64,000 nt of DNA from Halarcobacter sp. (GTDB taxonomy: Bacteria > Campylobacterota > Campylobacteria > Campylobacterales > Arcobacteraceae), in NCBI GenBank assembly GCA_048571215.1, contig CP182352.1, forward strand, positions 1,792,001 through 1,856,000, written 5' to 3'. The notes under the pieces are model-generated. The model was not told the origin of the DNA, searched no databases, and saw only the letters and a program-made list of their open reading frames with translations. Each line of letters starts with the position of its first letter. The stretch's first letter is position 1. Positions 7,983-18,999 of this stretch are shown one piece after another. The translations under genes were made by a program, and so were the position numbers.

Positions 7983-9341
7983 TTAATGTGTAGTACATAC
8001 AGAACATACATCAAAACTTCTTAATATGATTTTTGCTTTTTCTATAGAATCAGTACCTACAATAGCCTTTTGGGTAGTACCTAAAGTATTATTATCACCT
8101 GGACCTAGGTTCCATACAGTGGGAGTTATGACATTGTACTCTTCTATTTTTCCATTTCTAATAGTAGCCTCATGAAATAATGAACCTCTACAAGCTTCAA
8201 CTACACTTAATGCTGATGAGTGTTCTAAATCATCCAATTTTATCTGTGGTTTTATATAAGATTCTTCATTTATATCTATTTTGGAGATAAGCTCTTTTGT
8301 ACTATATAAAAGGTGTGCTAGTTCATCCATTCTAGCTAATACTCTTGTAAATAGTGAATCTTCATATATGCTGTGTACATCTTTTAAAAGTTTTCTATTT
8401 GAAATAAGTGCTCTTGATAAGGGACCTGTTTCATAAAATAGATTATCATACTTAACAGTTTTTGCCCAACCATAAGCTTTTGGGTTTTCTTCATCTTTAT
8501 CTAAACTATAAGCAAAACTATCATCTTCATATATCTTTTTTAAATCTATTTTATGGCTAACTCTTTTATTTAATCTTCCTTTTTCAAAAAGAGCTGATTC
8601 ACCTAAACTAAGATGTCTATCGTAACTTTTTCCAATATTTTCAAAATCATTTTCAAAAGATATATCTATAAACTCTTTTAGATGTCCTCCAATTTTTGAT
8701 AACTCATAGGTTTTAGATAAGTCAAGATACTTTTCAAACTCCATATTTATTAAACTTTTTTCAAAAAACCTTATGCTTGAATCTAAATAGTTTTTCATTG
8801 TAGCTATATCCATAAGTGTTGGATCACTTACTACCCCTCCAGGTATCATATATGAAGTGTGTGGCCATTGACCACCTATAATCGCTAAAGCTTTTATTGT
8901 TTCACTTGCACACCCAAGTGCTTCTAACCAGTTTTTCCCTTTTAATGGTGTATATTCATTGAATTTTTTAGACGAAAGCTTTATTATATCAGGCATAATA
9001 AACATATAAAACCATTTTATATGAGAATCGATAATTTCAATATTTAAACCTATTTCCCTTAAAAGTTTTGCCTTTTGTGTCACTTGTAAATCAACGCCAG
9101 CGTTTTTATATAGATTTTCTAATAAATTAACAGTTGCAAGAAGATGTGCTTGTCCACAAATTCCACAAATTCTTGGGGTATAAACCAAGGCATCCAAAAT
9201 AGGTTTATTTTTTAAAATATATTCAAATCCTCTAAAGTTTAAAAACTCTATTCGTGCATCACTAATTTTTTCATTTTCCCAAGAACAAACAAGTTTTGCT
9301 TCACCTTCTATTCTTTCTACTAAATCTATTGTTTTCATCAT
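7983..9341 (-). CDS. hupL: Group 2-type cytoplasmic [NiFe]-hydrogenase large subunit (HupL/HupV-like)
   Basis: ERIEGEA, PRICGICGQAH; ends SFDVCSVCTTH with no C-terminal extension. Confidence 0.88.
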   Translation of the reverse strand: MMKTIDLVERIEGEAKLVCSWENEKISDARIEFLNFRGFEYILKNKPILDALVYTPRICGICGQAHLLATVNLLENLYKNAGVDLQVTQKAKLLREIGLNIEIIDSHIKWFYMFIMPDIIKLSSKKFNEYTPLKGKNWLEALGCASETIKALAIIGGQWPHTSYMIPGGVVSDPTLMDIATMKNYLDSSIRFFEKSLINMEFEKYLDLSKTYELSKIGGHLKEFIDISFENDFENIGKSYDRHLSLGESALFEKGRLNKRVSHKIDLKKIYEDDSFAYSLDKDEENPKAYGWAKTVKYDNLFYETGPLSRALISNRKLLKDVHSIYEDSLFTRVLARMDELAHLLYSTKELISKIDINEESYIKPQIKLDDLEHSSALSVVEACRGSLFHEATIRNGKIEEYNVITPTVWNLGPGDNNTLGTTQKAIVGTDSIEKAKIILRSFDVCSVCTTH

Positions 9342-9606
9342 AGCCTTTCAATGTGAAAAAAATTTTATCATATTTTTAATATGATTTAATAATAAGCGTT
9401 AGTTTTAGATATAAGAATTGAGTTAAAATAGTTTTTTTATACTTTTTAGTTTAATTTATCTTTTTTTTAAGTGTCCAAGCTGAATTGTATTGAGCAAATC
9501 CAATTTTGGGATAGTACTGTGTTACAACTAGTGATGAAAACAAAATCAGTTTGCATTTTGTACCAAGTAGTTCTTGTTTTTTAGGGTCAGATGCAATGCC
9601 TATGAG

Positions 9607-9876
9607 CTAATCATGAGCTTGTTGTCTGTGTTTAAAATCAACAACAGCTACAATAAGCTTATTACCCTCAATAAGATAAAAAAGTCTATAATTTCCAATT
9701 CTATATCTATAATAGCCTTCAAGATTATCTTTTAACTTTTTAATATTTGTTCCATAAAAAGGGTTTTCTCTAAGTTGAGGATAAACAAAGTTTTCAATTT
9801 TTGAATAAAGCTTTTTATCTATCTTTTTTTTAACTTTTTCAAAAGTTTTAGTTTCTGCAATTTGATACTTAGACAA
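9607..9876 (-). CDS. RelE/ParE family toxin
   Basis: IKKLK...YRYRIGNYRLFY...VVDFKHR; probable TTG start at 9876 overlapping the antitoxin stop. Confidence 0.88.
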   Translation of the reverse strand: MSKYQIAETKTFEKVKKKIDKKLYSKIENFVYPQLRENPFYGTNIKKLKDNLEGYYRYRIGNYRLFYLIEGNKLIVAVVDFKHRQQAHD

Positions 9877-10105
9877 TTGTATAGTCACCTTTTTTGAAAT
9901 CTTCTAGTCCATCCATAAGGTTTTTTACAAGCTCTTTATCATTCATAATTTCAGCCATTTCATCATTTTCTACAAATTGTGAAGATGTCAAGTATTGCAT
10001 TGTTGCAAACTCTATGAAATTTGAAAGATTTCTTTTTTGACCTTCAGCTGCAAGTTTTATCATATCGTAAACTGAATCATCTACTCTCATAGTTACTGTT
10101 TTCAT
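9869..10105 (-). CDS. Ribbon-helix-helix antitoxin
   Basis: MKTVTMRVDDSVYDMIKLAAEGQKRNLSNFIE RHH pattern, acidic C-terminus, upstream of the toxin. Confidence 0.85.
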   Translation of the reverse strand: MKTVTMRVDDSVYDMIKLAAEGQKRNLSNFIEFATMQYLTSSQFVENDEMAEIMNDKELVKNLMDGLEDFKKGDYTIV

Positions 10106-10134
10106 AATATATCCTTTGAATATTTATTAATACT

Positions 10135-10163
10135 ATTGTATTCAATTTTATTCATTTTGTCAA
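10135..10163 (-). promoter_or_regulatory. Sigma70-type promoter of the TA operon
   Basis: TTGACA-17 bp-TACAAT on the minus strand. Confidence 0.75.
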
Positions 10164-10176
10164 TTGAAGATGTTTC

Positions 10177-10247
10177 ATATAACGGTTGACTTGAGAAATA
10201 TTTGACCCGCACTTGGGTCAAATATTCGCTCCAGCATTTTGTTATCT
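10177..10247 (-). mobile_element. attC site
   Basis: Minus strand AGATAAC-AAAATGCTGGAGCG-AATATTTGACCC..GGGTCAAATATT-TCTCAAGTCAACC-GTTATAT; R'' overlaps the upstream stop codon. Confidence 0.88.
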
Positions 10248-10544
10248 AATAATATATTTGATGTGCGTACCAATTTTATTATTTTTAATAATATCTATAA
10301 ATTGTTTTATCGAAACTTCTTGTTCAGATTTTATATAATCTCCACTCCATATTGAAGTAAATGTTATTCCATTTTTTGAATAATTGAAAATTTTATTTAA
10401 TTCATTAGATATATGAGCCAACTTACTTTTTTCAAAAATCCAAAATTCATCATTCCAATCAGCTTCATCTGAAAGAAAATCATGTAAATTAATATGCATC
10501 TTTTCGTAAGTATCCATTAAAATAATTTCAGTAATTAAACTCAT
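10242..10544 (-). CDS. Hypothetical cassette protein
   Basis: 100-aa ORF with AAAGGA RBS, bounded by two attC sites. Confidence 0.7.
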   Translation of the reverse strand: MSLITEIILMDTYEKMHINLHDFLSDEADWNDEFWIFEKSKLAHISNELNKIFNYSKNGITFTSIWSGDYIKSEQEVSIKQFIDIIKNNKIGTHIKYIIR

Positions 10545-10560
10545 GGTAATTTTTCCTTTT

Positions 10561-10614
10561 AAATAACCTTTGACTTCAGTGACGCTCTGTGTTCACTGCG
10601 AGGATTTGTTATGA
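10561..10614 (-). mobile_element. attC site (short, 54 bp)
   Basis: TCATAAC-AAATC-CTCGCAGTGAAC..GTCACTGAAG-TCAAAG-GTTATTT. Confidence 0.82.
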
Positions 10615-11435
10615 GATTTTTTAATTTCATCCATTGTTTTAAATATTGATTTTACCCAATGGAAATCTGCATCCCACGAACCAGAGGGTGAAATAAGTAC
10701 ACCTAAAGGACCATCATGATTTAAATAATCTAAGACTTCAGAGTATTTTAAATCAATTATAATATTCCCACACATGCCAGGACTAACTTCATATTCACTA
10801 AATAGAAATTCTATGCTTTCATTTTTAATGAAAAACCTAGGTATAAAACTAGGTTCGTCAAATCTACTAAAAAAGTCACAATCATTTTTATTTTTAATAA
10901 TATTTTTCACTTCTTCAAGTGCATTACGTTTAGCATCAAAAACATCAAAAAAATCAAAATAATTGTTAGTCTTTGGGTTGATGTTAATTGACCATACCGA
11001 ATTATTTCCATTTAGTGCAGGATAATGGAAAGTATACTGAGTCATTTTTATAGATAATAAATTTGGGGAAATAATTCCTTTTTCATAATTAGAATTGTAA
11101 ATTATAAGGTCTTCAGTTATTGACTGAAGGACATTTTCTTTTATTTCATTATTAATATAATCCAAGAATTTATTGGAAAAAAATGGATAAATAATTTGAG
11201 GATAAAAGATATTATCTATTTCTCTATCATGTCCAGCATATTTTATGTCTTTAAATGTATAAGGATAATCTATTTTCTTTACTTCCAAGGAGTTGAAAAC
11301 ATAATCTTCAATAATAGTGCTTATCTTTAATGTTGCAAACGAAGTTAATGGAATTATTATTGCAAGAACTAAACCAATATAACTTGCTTTACTTGGTATA
11401 GACCATTTTGACCACTGCCGTATACTTGGAATCAT
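10593..11435 (-). CDS. Membrane-anchored DUF3298/RsiV-like cassette protein
   Basis: N-terminal TM; YPQI..INNEIK, LLSI and FFIKNESIEFLFSEYEVSPG motifs; ORF reads into the attC. Confidence 0.65.
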   Translation of the reverse strand: MIPSIRQWSKWSIPSKASYIGLVLAIIIPLTSFATLKISTIIEDYVFNSLEVKKIDYPYTFKDIKYAGHDREIDNIFYPQIIYPFFSNKFLDYINNEIKENVLQSITEDLIIYNSNYEKGIISPNLLSIKMTQYTFHYPALNGNNSVWSININPKTNNYFDFFDVFDAKRNALEEVKNIIKNKNDCDFFSRFDEPSFIPRFFIKNESIEFLFSEYEVSPGMCGNIIIDLKYSEVLDYLNHDGPLGVLISPSGSWDADFHWVKSIFKTMDEIKKSHNKSSQ

Positions 11436-11464
11436 GCGATTTACCTTTTATAATATTTCATATA

Positions 11465-11500
11465 CTCATAACTATTTATTCAACATACATTATATATAAA
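11465..11500 (-). mobile_element. attI-like site 1
   Basis: Minus strand TATATAATGTATGTTGAATAAATAG|TTATGAG; core is the exact complement of this cassette's R'' (CTCATAAC); no attC hairpin upstream. Confidence 0.75.
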
Positions 11501-11718
11501 ACACCCTAAAAATTAATAAATAACATACACAAAACATGTCGTATATTAAGACAACAAGAATTACCTAAAATAGAGAGTTCTTACGTATTTCAGTATAAAA
11601 AATATTGCAATATGTCATATTTTTTAAATTTATTTTAAGTTTTTAATATAGTTTTTATGTTCATTTATTATCGATATTTAGATGATAATAGTACATTGTG
11701 TATGTATATTATGTCAAT

Positions 11719-11746
11719 ATCGTGATAAACCTACATTATGTTAAAT
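11719..11746 (+). other. dif-like sequence with a perfect XerD-arm match
   Basis: ATCGTGATAAACCTACATTATGTTAAAT; last 11 bp equal the canonical XerD arm TTATGTTAAAT. Confidence 0.35.
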
Positions 11747-11763
11747 TTATTGAGAGGTATATT

Positions 11764-11805
11764 ATGGATAAAAAACTATTAGATATTATGAGAGATAAAT
11801 TCTAA
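11764..11805 (+). pseudogene. intI: 5' stub of an integron integrase gene
   Basis: GAGAGG RBS then MDKKLLDIMRDKF*, resembling the IntI N-terminus (KLLD..R..IR.KHYS); divergent from the cassettes, ~290 bp from attI-like site 1. Confidence 0.68.
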
Positions 11806-11810
11806 ATATT

Positions 11811-12086
11811 CACTTTTTTATTGAAAAAAGTAAAATAAAAACAACCCACAGATTTCGAAGGTGAAACTTCCCTCGCTTATTATTTCACTTTTCTGTTTTT
11901 CAAAACTCGCTCTTGTGCTTGCACTCTCTGTGAGAAAACGTAAGTTAGTTACGTTTTTTTACGCTCTAACAGTTGAAAAACTTTTCCGAAAAGCAAAATA
12001 AACACTCGGCTTCTCAAATGCGGGAAGGTGGGATAAGGACCTTTGCATTTTTTATACCATTTTATTTAAGCTGGTGTGATACTCAA
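11811..12086 (-). repeat. Structured repeat X, copy 1
   Basis: Similar copies at 12419, 15256 and 15848; nested inverted repeats. Confidence 0.9.
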
Positions 12087-12095
12087 TTACTAAGA

Positions 12096-12382
12096 GAAAG
12101 TTCGAGGCTAGAGTATTTGTCCAGACTTTGTTGAAGCCGGAAGTTTTCTAATTATTTTCGGAGAAGACCGAGGACCGTTCAACTGGATAAAAGGTACTGA
12201 ATGTACCTTTTAGGAAAGCGTTCCGCAGGTCAGGAAATAATTATAAAACTGTAGGGAACTTTAGCTTCGACAACCGTCTGGTGGCTTTTGTTTTACTTTT
12301 ACCACTAAAAGTAAAGAAAGCGAAGAACTTGTTCTTCAAGACAATTGCATACAATAAAAACTATTTTCAAAATATTTGAGTG
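12096..12382 (+). repeat. Structured repeat Y, copy 1
   Basis: Nested stems CCAGAC/GTCTGG, TTGTTGAAGC/GCTTCGACAA, AAAAGGTAC/GTACCTTTT; near-identical copy at 15522. Confidence 0.9.
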
Positions 12383-12418
12383 TGATTAAATTTTTACTGT
12401 ACGTCTTAACTTATTCCG

Positions 12419-12705
12419 ACTTTCTTTTATGAAAAAGAAAGTAGCAAAGAAACCATCCTACAGGTTTCGAAAGTGAAACTTCCCTCGCTTATTACTTATC
12501 CTTTTTGAGTGACTAAAAACTTGCTCTTGTGCTTGCACTCTCTGTGAGAAAACGTGAGTTAGTCACGTTTTTTTACGCTTCAAACAGTTTAGTCACTTGT
12601 TTTCAAAAGAGATAAATAAACACTCGGCTTCTCAAATGCGGGAAGATGGGAAACTGACCTTTGCATTTTTTAATACCATTTTATTTTAGTTGGTGTAATA
12701 CTCAA
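12419..12705 (-). repeat. Structured repeat X, copy 2
   Basis: Aligns by eye to copy 1, with compensatory stem changes. Confidence 0.9.
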
Positions 12706-12720
12706 CAATTATTATAAAAG

Positions 12721-12748
12721 TGGAGATTCATCCTCTAGGGTGTTATTT
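12721..12748 (-). mobile_element. Truncated attC (R'' side only)
   Basis: AAATAACACCCTAGAGGATGAATC just after the stop codon, then repeat X. Confidence 0.5.
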
Positions 12749-12752
12749 CGAA

Positions 12753-13430
12753 TTATTCTATATTTAGTAATGGATTTTCTTTATTGTTTTTTGTTAAATT
12801 TTCTAAAAGAGCATTTTTCTCATCTTTTTTTTCTTGATAATCTTTTTGTAATTCTTTATAATTATTTAATGTTTCTTCAGTCTCTTCTCTATCTAAGTAT
12901 GAAGGTAAGTTTAGTAACATCTCTGTATATGTTTCTATTATATTTTCGAGAAATTTTTCTATATCTAAGTTTTTATAATCATCATTACTAAGAGATGTAT
13001 AATTCCCTTGGGCTTCATCCACCGATATAGTTGGCCAAGGAAACTGTCTATTTCCTGCTTCATATTCAATGTTATGTTTGATTTCATCAAAGTAAAGGCC
13101 TGGATACTCTTTTGTTTTCATCGTTTCAAATAAAGTTTTATTAAAATCATCATCATTGCTGAAATTTGTAACTTGCAATAATGCACTTCCAAAAGAAATT
13201 CTCTGATCTCCATTTTTTGATTCTTCTAAATAACTATTCTCTTCGAGCTTTTTTCTTAATTCTTTTGCTTCTTCATAACTTAAATCTTTTAATTCAGATT
13301 CATCTATAAATACATTTAAATTACCTTCTTTATTAATTATATTTTCAAATAGATCATTTACTTTGGCAGAGCTTTCTGATTTCAAGTCACTCTGATAATT
13401 CGGGGATACCTGTGTTGTATTAATTACCAT
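12753..13430 (-). CDS. Hypothetical acidic cassette protein
   Basis: 225-aa ORF with AAGGAG RBS immediately after an attC R' core. Confidence 0.75.
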   Translation of the reverse strand: MVINTTQVSPNYQSDLKSESSAKVNDLFENIINKEGNLNVFIDESELKDLSYEEAKELRKKLEENSYLEESKNGDQRISFGSALLQVTNFSNDDDFNKTLFETMKTKEYPGLYFDEIKHNIEYEAGNRQFPWPTISVDEAQGNYTSLSNDDYKNLDIEKFLENIIETYTEMLLNLPSYLDREETEETLNNYKELQKDYQEKKDEKNALLENLTKNNKENPLLNIE

Positions 13431-13448
13431 TTTATTTACTCCTTATAT

Positions 13449-13583
13449 GGATAACGTTTGAACTTGAAAAACAAGGGTACAATAGCACTTGATTATTTCA
13501 ATTTTCATTTTAGCTTTTTTGTTCTAAAAAACTTAAATAAACCACTGTATACCCTTGTTTTTATTTCCAAAGTTTTATTAGAG
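13449..13583 (-). mobile_element. attC site (long, R'' mutated to CTCTAAT)
   Basis: CTCTAAT-AAAACTTTGGAAATAAAAACAAGGGTA...TACCCTTGTTTTTCAAGTTCAAAC-GTTATCC; R'' complements the cassette start GTTAGAG at 6/7. Confidence 0.8.
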
Positions 13584-13588
13584 GTTCT

Positions 13589-14269
13589 TTAAAGTTTAAT
13601 TGCTTTTGTAATAGCAAAATTATACATTCTCCAATAACAAGCACTTTGTTGAAATCCAACTTCTTTTAACCAATCAAAATGATTTGATAAAATAATTGGA
13701 AAATCTTTTTCAATATGTTTTTCATACCAAAACTCTGGGTTTTCACCTTGCTCTTTCATAAACTGTTTCCAAAGAGAATATTGATGTTCTCTAACATCTT
13801 TATCTTCATCTATGATAATATCATTTGAGATATAAACTGCATTTTGATTTGCACTATTAAAAAGTTTTTGATAAAAAACTTTTCTCTCTTCCCAATTTAG
13901 ATGATGTAGTGTCATACCTGTTAAAATTATATCATATGATTTTCCAATTGAATCTATTTTATAATCCCCTTGAATTAATTCATAGTTATTTGTATATTTT
14001 GATATTTTTTGTTCGTAAGCATCTAGCATTTCAGTAGTAATATCAAATCCAGTGATATGTGAATTTGGAAGTTTCTTTAAAACAATTTCAGATAATACAC
14101 CATTACCACAACCTAAATCCAATATTCTATAGTTTTTATTTTTATCACTTGGTAATAAATCAGATATGATTTTATGTTGTTCCAAATATTGTGGAACCAA
14201 TCTAGTCATCAATGCTTCATAATCAGAAGCTTGTTTTGCGAAATGTTCTTGTACATTTATATCTTTCAT
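13589..14269 (-). CDS. Class I SAM-dependent methyltransferase (cassette)
   Basis: ILDLGCGNG motif I, GFDI, YDIIL..MTLHHL. Confidence 0.88.
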   Translation of the reverse strand: MKDINVQEHFAKQASDYEALMTRLVPQYLEQHKIISDLLPSDKNKNYRILDLGCGNGVLSEIVLKKLPNSHITGFDITTEMLDAYEQKISKYTNNYELIQGDYKIDSIGKSYDIILTGMTLHHLNWEERKVFYQKLFNSANQNAVYISNDIIIDEDKDVREHQYSLWKQFMKEQGENPEFWYEKHIEKDFPIILSNHFDWLKEVGFQQSACYWRMYNFAITKAIKL

Positions 14270-14275
14270 TTTATC

Positions 14276-14344
14276 CTCTAACGTTTAAAATGAGCCGATG
14301 AATTGCCTGTAGGGTAATTTATTAGCTCTCCTGATTTGTTATAT
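14276..14344 (-). mobile_element. attC site
   Basis: ATATAAC-AAATCAGGAGAGCTAATAAATTACC..GGCAATTCATCGGCTCATTTTAAAC-GTTAGAG. Confidence 0.88.
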
Positions 14345-14353
14345 TTATCATGT

Positions 14354-15028
14354 CTAATAGACCTCCATATATATAACTTTTAATTTTTGTATCAACCCTT
14401 TTTTGTTAAATTTAATCTCAATTTTACCATTGGCATTATAGTAGTAATATTTACAGTTAATAGGCTCCTTATTACGTATATCTTGCTGAAGCATTATTTT
14501 TAGTTGTTTATTTGGTAATTTCAATCTTTTTTCGTAAAGATATTCTTGTTTCGCATCTGTTGCTAATGTAGGGTTCTGTAAATATTTTGATATTTGTTGT
14601 CTATTCATTCCAACTGCTAGACCAGATTTTGTACTGATACCTTGATATAGTTTATCGGTTTCTATGCAATGAGTTTGATTAATTTCTTGAGAATCGTCTG
14701 TAATTGAAAATCCATAGTAGTCCCAACCAGCATATTTATAATAAATTACTCCTACGCTTCTGTCTCTTGAAATATAACATGCTTCTTCATCACAAGAAGC
14801 ACATCCAGGTTTTCGCTTAAACGAATTGATCTCACCATAATATTTTTTTAAATCTTCAAAACTATGCTTGCCTATTGTTAGTCCAAGTAAAGTTTTATGT
14901 GATTCGTCCATTGTCATGCCAGAGACTTTGTTATCAACTTCAAGAACAGAAGGTGACAACTGACACAACTCATCATTTGCATAAACATTGACAAATATCA
15001 GTAAGCTCAATGTTAATAAAAGTCTCAT
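14354..15028 (-). CDS. Hypothetical secreted cassette protein
   Basis: Signal peptide, several Cys residues, GGAG RBS; first cassette after attI-like site 2. Confidence 0.75.
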   Translation of the reverse strand: MRLLLTLSLLIFVNVYANDELCQLSPSVLEVDNKVSGMTMDESHKTLLGLTIGKHSFEDLKKYYGEINSFKRKPGCASCDEEACYISRDRSVGVIYYKYAGWDYYGFSITDDSQEINQTHCIETDKLYQGISTKSGLAVGMNRQQISKYLQNPTLATDAKQEYLYEKRLKLPNKQLKIMLQQDIRNKEPINCKYYYYNANGKIEIKFNKKGLIQKLKVIYMEVY

Positions 15029-15043
15029 TATCTAGTCTCCATT

Positions 15044-15080
15044 AATATAACTATTTATTGAATATACATTATATAAATAA
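15044..15080 (-). mobile_element. attI-like site 2
   Basis: TATATAATGTATATTCAATAAATAG|TTATATT, nearly identical to site 1; core complements this cassette's R'' (AATATAAC). Confidence 0.75.
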
Positions 15081-15208
15081 AGTACTTAAATACACTAATT
15101 TATTATATATTTGCAAAGAAAGGTTGTTTTATGCATGTTTATAGAAAAGATATTACATAATGTCAAAATCTAATTTTAAAGTACATTTTTTATAATTTAG
15201 AAATAGTT

Positions 15209-15250
15209 GTAGATAAAAAACTATTTGATATTATCTGAAATAAATTTTAA
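15209..15250 (+). pseudogene. intI: Second, more decayed intI 5' stub
   Basis: GTA GAT AAA AAA CTA TTT GAT ATT ATC TGA AAT AAA TTT TAA aligns to 11764-11805 and has the same junction to repeat X. Confidence 0.6.
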
Positions 15251-15255
15251 ATATT

Positions 15256-15511
15256 CACTTTTTTATTAAAAAAAGTAAAATAAAAATAACCCGCGGGTTT
15301 CGAAGGTGAAACTACCCTCGCTTATTATTTATTGTTTCTGTTTTGTAAAACTCACATAAAAATATGCTCCTAGCATATTTGTTCTGTTCAAACAGTTACA
15401 AAACTATTTCGAAACAATAAATAAACACTCGGCTTCTCAAATGCAGGAAAGTGGGAAACTGACCTTTACATTTTTTTAGTACCATTTTTTTTGAATTGGT
15501 GTAATACTCAA
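15256..15511 (-). repeat. Structured repeat X, copy 3
   Basis: Same scaffold as copies 1 and 2, alternative apical hairpin AAATATGCT-CCT-AGCATATTT. Confidence 0.9.
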
Positions 15512-15521
15512 TTTATACAAA

Positions 15522-15813
15522 GAAAGTTTGTGGCTAGTGTATTTAGTCCAGACTTTGTTGAAGCCGGAAGTTTTCTAATTATTTTCGGAGAAGACCGAGG
15601 ACCGTTCAACTGGATAAAAGGTACTGAATGTACCTTTTAGGAAGGCGTTCCGCAGGTCAGAAGATAATTAGAAAACTGTAGGGGACTTTAGCTTCAACAA
15701 CGTGTCTGGTTGCTTTTTGCCATACTTTTTACAATTAAAAAGTATGAAAGCGGAGAGCTTTGCTCTACAAGACAACTGCATACAATAAAAACTATTATCA
15801 AAATATTTGAGTG
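15522..15813 (+). repeat. Structured repeat Y, copy 2
   Basis: Near-identical to 12096-12382. Confidence 0.9.
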
Positions 15814-15847
15814 TAAATAAACTTTTGCTGTACCTCTTGGCTTTCTC

Positions 15848-16107
15848 AACTTTCTTTTGTAAAAAAGAAAGTAGCAAAGAAATTATCCCGCAGGTTTCGA
15901 AGGTGAAACTTCCCTCATTTATTATTTATTGTTTCTGTTTTGTAAAACTCACATAAAAATATGCTCCTAGCATATTTGTTCTGTTCAAACAGTTACAAAA
16001 CTTTTCCGAAACAATAAATAAACACTCGGCTTCTCAAATGCGGGAAGGTGGGATAAGGACCTTTGCATTTTTTAGTACCATTTTATTTGTATTGGTGAGA
16101 TACTCAA
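15848..16107 (-). repeat. Structured repeat X, copy 4
   Basis: Near-identical to copy 3. Confidence 0.9.
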
Positions 16108-16117
16108 TATATATTTT

Positions 16118-16183
16118 GAAAGTTCAAGGCTAGAGCATTTCAGTCCAGACTTTGTTGAAGCCGGAAGTTTTCTAATTATTTTC
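16118..16183 (+). repeat. Structured repeat Y, truncated copy 3
   Basis: GAAAGTTCAAGGCTAGAG...CCAGACTTTGTTGAAGCCGGAAGTTTTCTAATTATTTTC, then similarity stops. Confidence 0.85.
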
Positions 16184-16229
16184 CATTTATCTAAACACTC
16201 ACTTATTTACTTCTGTATTTTGTTATAGG
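16184..16229 (-). mobile_element. Truncated attC (R'' side only)
   Basis: CCTATAACAAAATACAGAAG.. just after the MarR stop; matches the decayed cassette start GTATAGG at ~17241. Confidence 0.6.
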
Positions 16230-16232
16230 ATA

Positions 16233-16688
16233 CTATACTAAAAGCTCAAGAAATAGAGTATTTAATTGATTCTTATCTTTTTTGTTTAATTTTGAGAAAA
16301 ATAAATTATCAATATCTTCTACAATTTTTACAGACTTTATTGCTAATTCTATTCCACTATGTGTTAATGTTATCGTTTTAGCTCTAGTATCTATTTCATT
16401 TTCACTTCTTAATATAAAACCATTTTTTTCTAAAATTTTTAAACTTTTGGATACTGTCATTTTATCCAGTTTAGTATGTTCAATTATTGTTGTTTGAGTT
16501 GTAATGATTTCTTGTTCTTTAAACCAAAGCAAAGAAGCCAAGATAACAAATCCAGAGTGATTTAAATTAACTCCATCCAATGCAGTTTTTATTTCTCTTT
16601 GCCAAAGTGTTGTCACTTGCCATAATAAAAAACCAGAACTTTGTTCTGCTTTTTTAACTTGAAAATTACTTTCTTTTTTCATTTTCAA
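16233..16688 (-). CDS. MarR family transcriptional regulator
   Basis: GFLLWQ..LWQR, LDKMTVSKSLKILEKNGFILR..DTRAKTITLT. Confidence 0.9.
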   Translation of the reverse strand: MKMKKESNFQVKKAEQSSGFLLWQVTTLWQREIKTALDGVNLNHSGFVILASLLWFKEQEIITTQTTIIEHTKLDKMTVSKSLKILEKNGFILRSENEIDTRAKTITLTHSGIELAIKSVKIVEDIDNLFFSKLNKKDKNQLNTLFLELLV

Positions 16689-17097
16689 TTAACCGTATTA
16701 ATCTATCCATATCTTCACCTAACTTATCTGCAACTTCTTGAGCAACTATCTTTTTCCATAAAAAAGATAAAATTCCTTCTATTTTTATGCTTGCTTTAAT
16801 CTCAATTTTACCATTTTTTTCTGTAATTTCATGAATACCGTACATTTTGGCTAATGGGAACTTTGTTAAATCTGTAAAACTTTTATCTTTTTCAATTTTA
16901 ATAAGTTGAATTTTAACTTTTTGTCCACCTTTTAATCCTAAAGTAAAAAAATTACCCTCTTTAAATTCTCCATCAAGTTTTGCGTAATCAATATCATCAT
17001 TAAAAGTATGCCAATTATTTATATCTGCCCATTTGTTAAAAATCTCCTCTTTTGAAATATTTTCAACTATTCTTGAATCTGTTCCAACTAATTGCAT
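16666..17097 (-). CDS. SRPBCC/polyketide cyclase family protein
   Basis: EEIFNKWADINNWHTF..LDGEFKEG pattern; coupled to the MarR gene. Confidence 0.8.
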   Translation of the reverse strand: MQLVGTDSRIVENISKEEIFNKWADINNWHTFNDDIDYAKLDGEFKEGNFFTLGLKGGQKVKIQLIKIEKDKSFTDLTKFPLAKMYGIHEITEKNGKIEIKASIKIEGILSFLWKKIVAQEVADKLGEDMDRLIRLIENEKRK

Positions 17098-17268
17098 CTA
17101 TTCTCCTTTTAGTAAAAATATATATAATATGCAAGTTTACTATATTGAATCTAAAAAATTGCTTTTATTTTATAAGTCATTTAATCTTTAGGCACACAAT
17201 AAAAAAGCCTCCGCACTACTCAAAAGTATTTAGTCCTATACGAATTTTTTTAATAGTTGATTATGTGT

Positions 17269-17544
17269 TTAGCCAAGGATTTCATAGTGACGCTCAACAT
17301 TAGCTGTTAGTTTACCCCAATGAGATTCTTTAACTCTTTTTTGATGATATTCAAAAGCAACTTTATTCGAAAATTCCTCATAAACGTCAAATCGAAGAGG
17401 GTTTTCTGGATTTTGAGTGACCCTAAATGTAATACAACCTGACTCTTCACAAGTGATACGTTTATGGTTTACCAATTCACTTTTTATTAATTCAAGCTGT
17501 GATTTAGGAACCAAAATAAAACCTTTTAATGTTACTTTAGACAT
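17269..17544 (-). CDS. ABM (antibiotic biosynthesis monooxygenase) family protein
   Basis: EESGCITFRV..RFDVYEEF..AFEYHQ. Confidence 0.85.
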   Translation of the reverse strand: MSKVTLKGFILVPKSQLELIKSELVNHKRITCEESGCITFRVTQNPENPLRFDVYEEFSNKVAFEYHQKRVKESHWGKLTANVERHYEILG

Positions 17545-17626
17545 AAATATCCTTATTATAAATTAGACCTACTACACCAAACAATTTGGAACACAATTTG
17601 GAATTGTTTCGAGTGATTAACGTTTC

Positions 17627-17944
17627 TTAAATGCCGTAGTCACGTTCTACTTTCGATATACGAGTTTTGAATGATGAATACCATTTTTCATGACCAAGCC
17701 TTTGGGCTTCTTGGTGCTCTGCATTTGCTTTCCATTGCATTATAGACTCAAGGTCAGACCAATATGAAACAGTAATTCCAACATCTTCTCTTGCAGACTC
17801 TACACCTAAAAAACCTGATTGCTTTGAAGCTAATTCAATCATTCGGTTCGCCATTTGTCCATAACCATTATCACCTTCAGTACGCTGAGATGTGAAAATC
17901 ACCGCGTAATAAGGTGGTTTGGGTGTGTTAGCGATAAGAGACAT
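17627..17944 (-). CDS. ABM family / heme-degrading monooxygenase-like protein
   Basis: PPYYAVIFTS..GFLGVES..GITVSYW..WK.NAEH.EAQ..G...WY. Confidence 0.87.
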   Translation of the reverse strand: MSLIANTPKPPYYAVIFTSQRTEGDNGYGQMANRMIELASKQSGFLGVESAREDVGITVSYWSDLESIMQWKANAEHQEAQRLGHEKWYSSFKTRISKVERDYGI

Positions 17945-17960
17945 TTTTAATCCTTTTTAA

Positions 17961-17975
17961 AGTTAACTATTTATT
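17961..17975 (-). mobile_element. attI-like site 3 (partial)
   Basis: AATAAATAG|TTAACT shares the proximal bases of sites 1 and 2, then is fused to an X fragment. Confidence 0.5.
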
Positions 17976-18095
17976 ATTCATCCATTTTGAGTACATAAAA
18001 ACTTGCTCTTGTGCTTGTAGACAAAAAAGTTAGAAAGCATACCCACGTTCAGTGGGTGTAAAAAAGCGAAGAACATTAGTTCTTAAAGACAAAAT
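17971..18095. repeat. Remnants of repeats X and Y
   Basis: TTATTATTCATCCATTTTGAGTACATAAAAACTTGCTCTTGTGCTTG matches X copy 2; AAAGCGAAGAAC..GTTCTTAAAGACAA matches the end of Y. Confidence 0.75.
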
Positions 18096-18102
18096 GTATA
18101 CC

Positions 18103-18999
18103 TCAATCAATCAACTTCCTATGAAGTCTATCTATTTTAAAAGTTTTAGCAATACCTGTCAGTGATAGATATGCTCTTTTTGTTATACCTAAGGGAACTT
18201 CAGCGGGGATTCCTATGTTTTTCTTAGTTTCAAGCATATTTTCCCTTGGAAAATCAAACTCAGTACACCCAATACATGGCATACCAGCTCTAGTTTTTGT
18301 ATTTACATCATTCCATAAAACTTTATTACAATTTGAGTGGGTCATAGGTCCACGACATCCTTGTTCATAAAAAAGACAGCCCTCTTTTAATCCAAAGCTT
18401 TTTGCTTCTACCTTCCATTCAAAGTACTCATTTCTTGTACAACCATGGTGGGCCAAACCATAATATAATTCAACTGGTCTTCCATATTCATCGAGAGTTA
18501 TCTTTCCATACTCTTTTAAGCTAAATAGAGTTTGAAAAATCCATTCTGGATGGACTGGGCAACCTGTAAGGTTTATTATTGGATGATTTAATCCATACAT
18601 ATTATCTATCTCTAAAGATTTTTCAAGCCCATCTATGTCACTATTGAAAGTAAATCTACTGTGAACTCCACCATATGAAGCACACGAACCAACGGCTATA
18701 ATATATTTTGATTTTTTTACAAGTTTATTAAACTGTATATATGGAGATTGATTTGATATTTTAAAAAAGTTTTCATTTGAACTTATTGCACCCTCGACAA
18801 GTAAAAAGTCAATTTCAACTTCACTATTTAAAATATCATCTAAAATAATCCCTTCAGTTAAGGAAGGGTGATATATAAGATCAAAACTATCTAAAAATAG
18901 TTTCATCCTATTTTGATTTGCACTTAAAAAAGAGTGGGTATTTCCATTACAAGTTATAGCTTGAAACCATAAAAGCTTTGGTTTTCCACTAGTTGTCAT
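18103..18999 (-). CDS. hupS: Group 2-type cytoplasmic [NiFe]-hydrogenase small subunit (HupS/HupU-like)
   Basis: WFQAITCNGNTHS, GSCASYGG, GCPVHP, CTRNE, GCRGP; no Tat signal. Confidence 0.88.
   Translation of the reverse strand: MTTSGKPKLLWFQAITCNGNTHSFLSANQNRMKLFLDSFDLIYHPSLTEGIILDDILNSEVEIDFLLVEGAISSNENFFKISNQSPYIQFNKLVKKSKYIIAVGSCASYGGVHSRFTFNSDIDGLEKSLEIDNMYGLNHPIINLTGCPVHPEWIFQTLFSLKEYGKITLDEYGRPVELYYGLAHHGCTRNEYFEWKVEAKSFGLKEGCLFYEQGCRGPMTHSNCNKVLWNDVNTKTRAGMPCIGCTEFDFPRENMLETKKNIGIPAEVPLGITKRAYLSLTGIAKTFKIDRLHRKLID

What the first reader, a model, noticed from the sequence alone, without database searches (positions are those of the whole stretch)
9400..18100. Integrase-less integron island made of three tandem attI modules
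Seen: on the minus strand the order is [repeat remnant, attI-3, 3 cassettes, cut attC] [X/Y repeats, intI stub, attI-2, 3 cassettes, cut attC] [X/Y repeats, intI stub, attI-1, 2 cassettes, TA pair]. The first cassette at attI-1 and attI-2 has exactly complementary ends (GTTATGAG/CTCATAAC and GTTATATT/AATATAAC), as expected for IntI-mediated insertion. No integrase ORF occurs in the window. Known: canonical integrons have one intI and one attI, and CALINs are attC clusters without intI. Inference: this is a multiplied, non-autonomous capture platform, each copy with a different cassette set, either loaded in trans by an integrase elsewhere or assembled from formerly separate arrays.
Basis: partly seen in the sequence, partly recalled or inferred. 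Interest (0 to 1): 0.85.

Follow-up and report, generated by a model that had tools for sequence, protein, structure and literature searches.

The report
Many integron docking sites, one integrase
This island holds two intact integron docking sites and the remnant of a third, each heading its own captured genes. They are part of about 21 integrase-less docking sites of mixed origin in a genome with a single integrase, which likely loads them all from a distance.

Summary
Largely confirmed, but the island has two working modules and one decayed one, not three, and it is part of a genome-wide system. attI-1 and attI-2 score against a profile built only from relatives' intI-linked sites (E 2e-5 and 2e-9). 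attI-3 scores at chance level. Four attC sites score 27–75 bits, all in modules 1 and 2.

The genome has one intact IntI, at guaA, about 0.9 Mb away, and 21 orphan attI sites. Of these, 18 sit behind the X/Y hairpin repeat, and 15 of 19 testable ones have a first cassette with exactly complementary ends (permutation mean 2.4).

The orphans come from several integron alleles: attI-1 resembles this genome's own, attI-2 those of other species. The island is therefore a mosaic, not a local triplication. One orphan clade with no intI-linked member found spans four genomes, and its copies in this genome carry unrelated first cassettes, which points to loading after integrase loss. A GTDB-wide exact motif search gave 38 orphan and 8 intI-linked sites. 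X/Y is lineage-specific and not required.

In-trans loading and spread by recombination are inferred, not shown. The scan found this system before on other DNA of this genome.

The parts
18103..18999 (-). NiFe hydrogenase small subunit gene, upstream flank
   Evidence: PF14720 and PF01058. Lies within 1.5 kb upstream of the large subunit in 19 of 21 relatives.
17971..18090 (-). X/Y repeat remnant directly after the small-subunit stop
   Evidence: 17971-18017 is 87% identical to X/Y. The extension to ~18090 is my reading by eye. G002 also has X/Y here.
17961..17976 (-). attI-3 remnant, AATAAATAG|TT only; GTT at 17967-17965
   Evidence: E 2.4, chance level; not found by the genome-wide profile.
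17560..17964 (-). Decayed cassette 3.1: ABM monooxygenase-family gene (17627-17944), attC eroded
   Evidence: PF03992. 75% homologue in G002 is followed by a 44.7-bit attC.
17175..17560 (-). Probable decayed cassette 3.2: second ABM gene (17269-17544)
   Evidence: PF03992. No scoring attC; cassette status inferred from position only.
16186..17175 (-). Cassette 3.3: unassigned ORF (16666-17097) plus MarR gene (16233-16688), attC cut by X/Y
   Evidence: 88% identical to a complete two-gene cassette with a 68-bit attC in G002, L075 1027-2041. MarR PF01047.
15230..16185 (-). X/Y hairpin repeat block 2
   Evidence: folding z -11.6.
15209..15250 (+). Degenerate intI stub 2
   Evidence: Translation V-D-K-K-L-F-D-I-I-stop-N-K-F-stop; same break point as other stubs.
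15049..15102 (-). attI-2 with embedded TATAAT box; foreign-allele type
   Evidence: E 1.6e-9. Last 120 nt are 87% identical to G019's intI-linked site and 63% to this genome's own.
14276..15051 (-). Cassette 2.1: 224-aa unknown protein (14354-15028) plus attC 14276-14344
   Evidence: 47.8 bits; exact ends; no Pfam or PADLOC hit.
13449..14282 (-). Cassette 2.2: SAM methyltransferase (13589-14269) plus long attC 13449-13583
   Evidence: 74.7 bits. 97.0% over 723 nt to a cassette in G002's intI-linked array and 96.4% to a second orphan array in this genome.
12749..13455 (-). Cassette 2.3: 225-aa unknown protein (12753-13430), attC lost
   Evidence: Starts GTTATCC at the preceding attC; no Pfam hit.
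11785..12750 (-). X/Y hairpin repeat block 1, beginning with the conserved motif at 12748-12720
   Evidence: One of 49 blocks (19.7 kb) in the genome.
11764..11805 (+). intI stub 1: 12 codons, then F-stop at the X/Y junction
11470..11763 (-). intI-attI intergenic region with attI-1 (11470-11526); own-allele type
   Evidence: 87% to the intact integron; E 2.2e-5.
10561..11472 (-). Cassette 1.1: 280-aa DUF3298 protein (10593-11435) plus attC 10561-10614
   Evidence: PF11738; 26.8 and 29.2 bits; exact ends.
10177..10567 (-). Cassette 1.2: 100-aa unknown protein (10242-10544) plus attC 10177-10247
   Evidence: 62 bits.
9600..10183 (-). TA cassette: putative antitoxin (9869-10105) and ParE-type toxin (9607-9888), attC lost
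   Evidence: PF05016; TTGACA-17-TACAAT at 10163-10135. An 86% homologue in a G022 array is followed by an attC-like site of 21 bits.
7983..9341 (-). NiFe hydrogenase large subunit gene, downstream flank
   Evidence: PF00374.

Best explanation
The island holds two integrase-less integron platforms (12-codon intI stub, promoter region, attI, cassettes) and one eroded one, out of about 21 in this chromosome, and the single intact IntI at guaA likely loads and reshuffles them in trans. Step 1, shown: the sites are true attI copies heading attC cassettes inserted at G|TT. Step 2, shown: they descend from several different intI-attI alleles, most of which are linked to intI in other Campylobacterota. 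Step 3, inferred: whole integrons or their 5' ends were imported repeatedly and lost intI, while attI and its TATAAT box were kept. Step 4, inferred: cassettes kept arriving after integrase loss. Step 5, inferred and weakest (about 0.45): in this lineage, platforms fused to the X/Y repeat are copied and stacked head to tail by homologous recombination through X/Y and the stub, which would give tandem mosaics like this one.
For: One IntI over the TIGR02249 cut-off, 398 bits, with the catalytic motifs and IntI patch. The motif lies upstream of intI in 36 of 80 IntI loci. 22 profile hits at E<0.002 among 29 at E<=10, and 0 in the reversed genome. First-cassette ends are exact in 15 of 19; permutation mean 2.4, maximum 9 in 20,000. 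All 15 platform pairs with 88-97% upstream identity have unrelated first cassettes. A clade of 6 orphans here plus 5 in G002, G017 and G012 (relatives' copies 84-97% identical to their best match here) is at most 71% identical to any of 45 linked references. The same hydrogenase site in G002 holds another platform type with three different cassettes. Cassette 2.2 is 97% identical to a cassette in G002's intI-linked array. Identity to the nearest linked allele is highest at the core: 94, 95, 87, 77, 81% with distance from GTT. X/Y lies within 400 nt upstream of 18 of 21 orphans against 0.35% of random sites. A whole X/Y-platform-cassette module is 97.9% identical over 4,071 nt in G002.
Against: No recombination or expression was observed; the contig data show no alternative first cassette that I could separate from repeat artefacts. 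Exact ends prove insertion at G|TT but not when or in which cell. 7 of 24 same-genus genomes have two or more motif copies and no intI match at E<=1e-40, so orphans also persist without a resident enzyme. Core conservation is partly built in, because sites were found by that core and 15 of the 22 were profile seeds; linked alleles of different types also share 90% of the last 12 nt. 12 of 28 X/Y blocks of 200 nt or more have no attI behind them. Whether this IntI accepts foreign-type attI such as attI-2 is untested. Promoter-like matches in the region are at chance level, 50 against 49.9.
Confidence: 0.72

Rival explanations
1. Frozen relics: each platform is what is left of a complete integron that lost intI, and its array has not changed since. 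These would be ordinary CALINs with a visible attI.
For: Module 3 is clearly eroding. Terminal attCs are lost or cut. Elsewhere in the family, stubs break at many different codons, as independent deletions would. Relatives keep orphans without any intI.
Against: Near-identical orphan twins, and a clade with no linked member found, carry unrelated cassettes, mostly with exact ends. Cassette 2.2 is 97% identical to one in another species' intI-linked array.
Confidence: 0.12
2. Platforms are kept as promoters and landing pads for homologous recombination. Arrays were loaded in donor cells and imported whole by natural transformation, with no role for the resident IntI.
For: 4,071 nt of module shared at 97.9% with G002. 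Stubs keep donor-allele residues up to a common break. TATAAT is conserved 16 nt before GTT. Integron type at guaA does not follow guaA or hydrogenase similarity.
Against: It still needs IntI acting on orphan-type sites somewhere, because the orphan-only clade has no linked donor among 45 references. Competence of this organism is assumed from memory of the group, not tested.
Confidence: 0.1
3. X/Y-stub-attI is a non-autonomous transposon moved by the genome's HUH (TIRYT-like) Y1 transposase or by an IS110 recombinase. This competes with step 5 only.
For: A single Y1 gene exists (NF047646 at 78.2 bits, cut-off 80). Its GGGG[AT]CAG-type repeats resemble X/Y sub-motifs, and X/Y end pieces lie in its neighbourhood. 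X/Y has conserved end motifs. IS110 copies sit inside X/Y.
Against: No empty and filled site pair was found. X/Y blocks vary widely in length and make-up. Only 1 of 38 orphans in other genomes had an X/Y match within 400 nt, and that one looks spurious. The Y1 frame seems to shift near its C-terminus. The IS110 target lies inside X/Y, not at the stub junction.
Confidence: 0.12
4. One platform was triplicated locally and each copy then took different cassettes.
For: Same orientation; the X/Y blocks are 78% alike; same stub break.
Against: attI-1 groups with the genome's own allele (100/97) and attI-2 with the G019/G024 type (97/90). Each X/Y block has closer matches elsewhere in the genome, 82-84%.
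Confidence: 0.03

Closest known systems
CALIN and SALIN (Cury et al., bioRxiv 10.1101/030866, passages read; Loot et al., bioRxiv 10.1101/2022.09.11.507474, passages read)
   Same: attC cassettes with no nearby intI, short arrays, often in a replicon that encodes IntI. Mobilisation in trans is acknowledged (Xanthomonas preprint 10.1101/2025.06.18.660453, passages read).
   Different: In those papers CALINs are cassette donors or products of insertion at attG sites; 95% lack an intI pseudogene, and attI was searchable only for classes 1-3. Here each array keeps a full attI and leader, so it can be an acceptor, and there are about 21 from several alleles.
Sedentary chromosomal integron (intI, one attI, one array)
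   Same: The guaA locus fits: intact IntI, divergent attI, small array. The orphans share its leader architecture.
   Different: One intI to about 22 attI. Storage is spread over many short arrays, each with a first position, instead of one long array.
attG insertion (Loot et al.)
   Same: IntI-made cassette insertions away from the integron.
   Different: attG sites differ in sequence from attI. These sites are homologues of intI-linked attI, with up to 93% identity over 250 nt.
REP/REPIN and TIRYT repeats (Quentin et al., PMC6006769, passages read); IS110 targeting of REP (PMC1525189, PMC12288879, listing and start of abstract only)
   Same: X/Y is a dispersed, intergenic, strongly palindromic repeat that is an IS110 target, in a genome with one class 2 Y1 gene.
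   Different: X/Y blocks reach 1.8 kb and are mosaic. A GTAG/CGTC foot was not tested, and a link to the Y1 enzyme is not shown.

Membership tests
Complete integron | intI next to the array | tested here: not met
   Only 12-codon stubs; the nearest intact intI is at C1:895k.
Complete integron | attI site | tested here: met
   attI-1 and attI-2 pass the independent profile; attI-3 does not.
Complete integron | attC-bounded cassettes in one orientation | tested here: met
   4 attC sites, 27-75 bits, all on the expected strand. Models were home-built from relatives' linked arrays (two training sites of the long model came from this genome's linked array), not IntegronFinder's.
Complete integron | IntI-catalysed attI x attC recombination | not testable with these tools
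   Only indirect: exact cassette ends in 15 of 19.
Complete integron | Pc promoter driving cassettes | tested here: inconclusive
   TATAAT conserved in the site; the promoter scan is at chance level; no usable RNA data.
CALIN | At least 2 attC sites | tested here: met
   definition read.
CALIN | No nearby intI | tested here: met
REPIN/TIRYT non-autonomous element (X/Y) | Dispersed palindromic intergenic repeat | tested here: met
   49 blocks; z -11.6.
REPIN/TIRYT non-autonomous element (X/Y) | Cognate Y1 gene flanked by the same repeat | tested here: inconclusive
   The Y1 gene is flanked by related short palindromes and X/Y end pieces, not by full X/Y.
REPIN/TIRYT non-autonomous element (X/Y) | Fixed ends with empty and filled sites | tested here: inconclusive
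   Conserved end motifs; no empty platform found, and the pattern used was probably too narrow.

The most novel reading that the evidence does not exclude
Arcobacteraceae run a distributed integron. One integrase serves about 20 self-promoted docking sites collected from many species' integron alleles. The docking site itself spreads as a module, hitch-hiking on a hairpin repeat that swaps new attI alleles in at a fixed 12-codon intI stub. Many so-called CALINs would then be active capture sites, and a cell would express some 20 first-position cassettes at once instead of one.
Probability: 0.45. Interest if true: 0.85.

Novelty: new variant of a known kind. Interest (0 to 1): 0.7.

Why it matters
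The standard model has one attI per integrase, so only the cassettes near one promoter are expressed, and integrase-less arrays count as relics or donors. Current tools cannot see attI outside classes 1-3, so this arrangement would be filed as scattered CALINs. If the orphans are active, they bear directly on the open question of where CALINs come from and what they do. They also give a natural panel of attI variants for mapping what an integrase needs. In a family that includes water- and food-associated bacteria, gene capture would have many more entry points than intI counts suggest.

Tried and rejected
- Rfam scan of 9000-18500: 2 chance-level hits.
- Two home-made attC heuristics: the first missed the window's attCs through a pattern error; the second did not separate from controls. 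Both were replaced by covariance models. One search was used to pick training sites and 6 of the attC calls.
- PADLOC: 0 of 7 cassette proteins hit.
- GNAT reading of 9451-9606 is recalled; no Pfam hit.
- Exact X/Y-stub junction search in GTDB: 1 hit.
- Search for an empty platform: uninformative.
- Shared hairpin repeat upstream of orphans in distant genomes: none convincing in 8 loci.
- Sequencing runs: the best holders may be the source sample and are not independent. Their contigs confirm the unique segments with 0 differences but none spans X/Y; the listed joints fall in repeats and are not used. The RNA run has too small a share to use.
- Literature search matched 'attitude' and is void.
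- Rejected readings: three equal modules; local triplication; X/Y as a required part; 'cut attC' for the 12720-12748 motif.
Full report
SETTING. The window is C1:1792001-1856000 of a complete 3.61-Mb, 28.5% GC chromosome. Records that share its attI motif and integrase are nearly all Arcobacteraceae or other Campylobacterota, so I treat it as an Arcobacter-type genome. The island lies between the small- and large-subunit genes of a NiFe hydrogenase. In 19 of 21 relatives with the large subunit, the small subunit is within 1.5 kb upstream; the exceptions are the two closest, G017 and G002.

OBSERVATION CHECK. To avoid circularity I built an attI profile from 8 intI-linked sites of other genomes only. 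It scores attI-2 at E 1.6e-9 and attI-1 at 2.2e-5. attI-3 scores 2.4, no better than the best reversed-window hit, 2.2. Two covariance models were trained on 14 short and 8 long attCs from intI-linked arrays, none from the window. They find four attCs, all in modules 1 and 2 and on the expected strand: 62, 48, 27-29 and 75 bits. The next best hit is 16 bits (the long model covered 1-40000). Module 3 has none, but it is a decayed array: homologues of 3.1 and 3.3 are complete cassettes in G002, with attCs of 44.7 and 68 bits. The TA pair has lost its attC here but has an attC-like site behind it in G022. The motif ending module 2 belongs to X/Y, not to the cassette. Short-read contigs reproduce the unique segments with no differences, but may come from the source sample.

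THE INTEGRASE. The genome has one IntI over the TIGR02249 cut-off, of 10 matches, directly behind guaA. It is 320 aa with the R, K, HxxR, H and Y motifs and the IntI-specific patch (motif roles recalled). Its attI carries the same motif, and window 11470-11799 is 87% identical to its first codons plus leader. The motif lies upstream of intI in 36 of 80 IntI loci from GTDB, many of the rest being distant taxa or cut short. It is therefore the real attI of this group.

GENOME-WIDE SYSTEM. A profile from 15 seeds gives 29 hits at E<=10 and 0 in the reversed genome; 22 are at E<0.002, one linked and 21 orphan, 7 of them not seeds. Of the 21, 19 have a called attC within 3.5 kb. In 15 of the 19 the four variable bases of the first cassette's two ends are exactly complementary, 17 match at three or more, and shuffling gives a mean of 2.4 and a maximum of 9 in 20,000. 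X/Y lies within 400 nt upstream, same orientation, for 18 of 21, against 0.35% of random sites. Conversely 16 of 28 X/Y blocks of 200 nt or more are followed by an attI.

FAMILY-WIDE. The motif with up to 3 mismatches occurs in 19 of 24 same-genus genomes, twice or more in 13, and in 1 of 16 other families; the reversed control gave 1 hit. A full intI is in 6 of those 24 and broken ones in 3. An exact search of GTDB gave 53 loci: 8 with intI upstream, 38 without (5 of them with 24-121 aa of intI), 7 too short to tell. That pattern favours two attI types, so the ratio is indicative only. X/Y of this genome's kind lay within 400 nt of only 1 of the 38, apparently a spurious match, and stubs there break at various codons. 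X/Y is thus a lineage-specific partner. In G012 the hydrogenase spacer holds only a hairpin repeat and no attI, which fits the repeat arriving first.

ORIGIN. Among 17 intI-linked loci, leader type co-varies with the intI 5' allele (Mantel r 0.73, p 1e-4; kin are not independent), so leader types mark integron alleles. The orphans here fall into at least six lineages. Several are closer to other genomes' linked leaders than to the resident one: 93% against 62%, 90-91% against 68-69%, 90% against 60%; one is 80% identical to a Sulfurospirillum-linked leader. In the window, attI-1 is the resident type (87%). attI-2 has a shortened leader whose last 120 nt are 87% identical to G019's linked site and 63% to the resident one. 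The island is a mosaic. Six stubs from four tree clades break at the same point, after codon 12, and keep donor-specific residues up to it. I read that as recombination of incoming alleles into an old X/Y-stub fusion. A site-specific event at that point is not excluded.

LOADING AFTER ORPHANING. All 15 orphan pairs that are 88-97% identical upstream have unrelated first 200 nt downstream. Six orphans here form a clade (100/99). Five more in G002, G017 and G012 are 84-97% identical to its members, and all eleven are at most 71% identical to any of 45 linked references, some of which are the same record twice. The simplest reading is multiplication as orphans followed by separate loading. G002 has a different platform type and three different cassettes at this same hydrogenase site. 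Cassette 2.2 is 97.0% identical to a cassette in G002's linked array, while the neighbouring hydrogenase proteins are 75% identical. All of this is indirect. Import of ready-loaded modules also occurs, since 4,071 nt are shared at 97.9% with G002, and 7 of 24 relatives keep multiple copies with no intI found.

MECHANISM. Shown: site identity, cassette structure, multi-allele origin, association with X/Y. Inferred: capture in trans by the guaA IntI (about 0.72); self-promotion through the TATAAT box in the site (no data); spread by homologous recombination through X/Y (about 0.45). The same-orientation clusters, mosaic X/Y blocks and attCs truncated where a following X/Y begins fit stacking of modules. 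Transposition by the Y1 or IS110 enzymes is the alternative; natural competence is recalled, not tested.

COMPARISON. The island meets the CALIN definition and fails that of a complete integron. It works like the capture half of an integron. Cury et al. (passages) could not search attI outside classes 1-3 and found intI pseudogenes near 5% of CALINs. Loot et al. (passages) explain small CALINs by attG insertion and report that attI sites do not themselves recombine into genomes at a significant rate, which argues against IntI spreading the platforms. PMC12614218 (passages) notes recruitment into attI sites of other integrons and during transformation. I found no description of multiple integrase-less attI platforms in searches; one search was void, most subscription journals are not in the library, and I opened no supplements.

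EARLIER NOTES. Seven AI notes on other windows of this genome reach the same reading. I had formed it before looking, and they are not independent evidence. What I tested here that their short summaries do not state: independent training sets, multi-allele origin, the orphan-only clade, the GTDB-wide ratio and IS110 targeting of X/Y.

VERDICT. A real feature, a new variant of a known kind. Interest 0.70.

Noticed in passing
G000 C1:1467506-1468801, 1705063-1706358, 2521360-2522655, 2826475-2827770 (L052 4274-5257): A 1,296-nt IS110 element (PF01548 and PF02371, about 270 nt non-coding 5' end) in four 100% identical copies, all at one position inside X/Y. A second element, 75% identical to it, has three copies that also lie beside X/Y pieces. 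The window's X/Y blocks carry the empty target.
   Followed up: partly
G000 C1:2555500-2560911: The single TIRYT-like Y1 HUH gene (177 aa, frame seems to shift near the C-terminus) heads an array of ORFs that look like Rhs-type toxin tips with immunity genes (label recalled), separated by GGGG[AT]CAG-type palindromes. This could be a repeat-punctuated cassette array of another kind.
   Followed up: partly
   Followed up: no
guaA locus in G018 (L047), G023 (L046), L108, L110: At the usual integron site next to guaA, attI and array remain while intI is gone or reduced to a stub. Integron allele type at guaA does not track guaA identity.
   Followed up: partly
window 11600-11630; C1:896339-896369: A palindrome (AAAAAATAT...ATATTTTT) in the leader is kept in linked and orphan copies; possibly a regulator binding site.
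   Followed up: no
window 9451-9606: A 52-codon fragment after the TA pair resembles the C-terminus of a GNAT acetyltransferase by recall; no Pfam hit. It may be a further decayed cassette.
   Followed up: partly
window 12753-13430 and C1:899760-900470: Two unknown proteins of about 230 aa with similar-looking N- and C-termini, each in the last position of an array; similarity judged by eye only.
   Followed up: no
G000 C1:1929044-1945846 against L074: Two segments of about 5 kb are 98.5% and 92.6% identical to G002 around an orthologous orphan attI whose first cassette differs.
   Followed up: partly
whole genome: Cumulative GC skew has its minimum at 3.43 Mb and maximum at 1.17 Mb, which gives unequal arms.
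   Followed up: no
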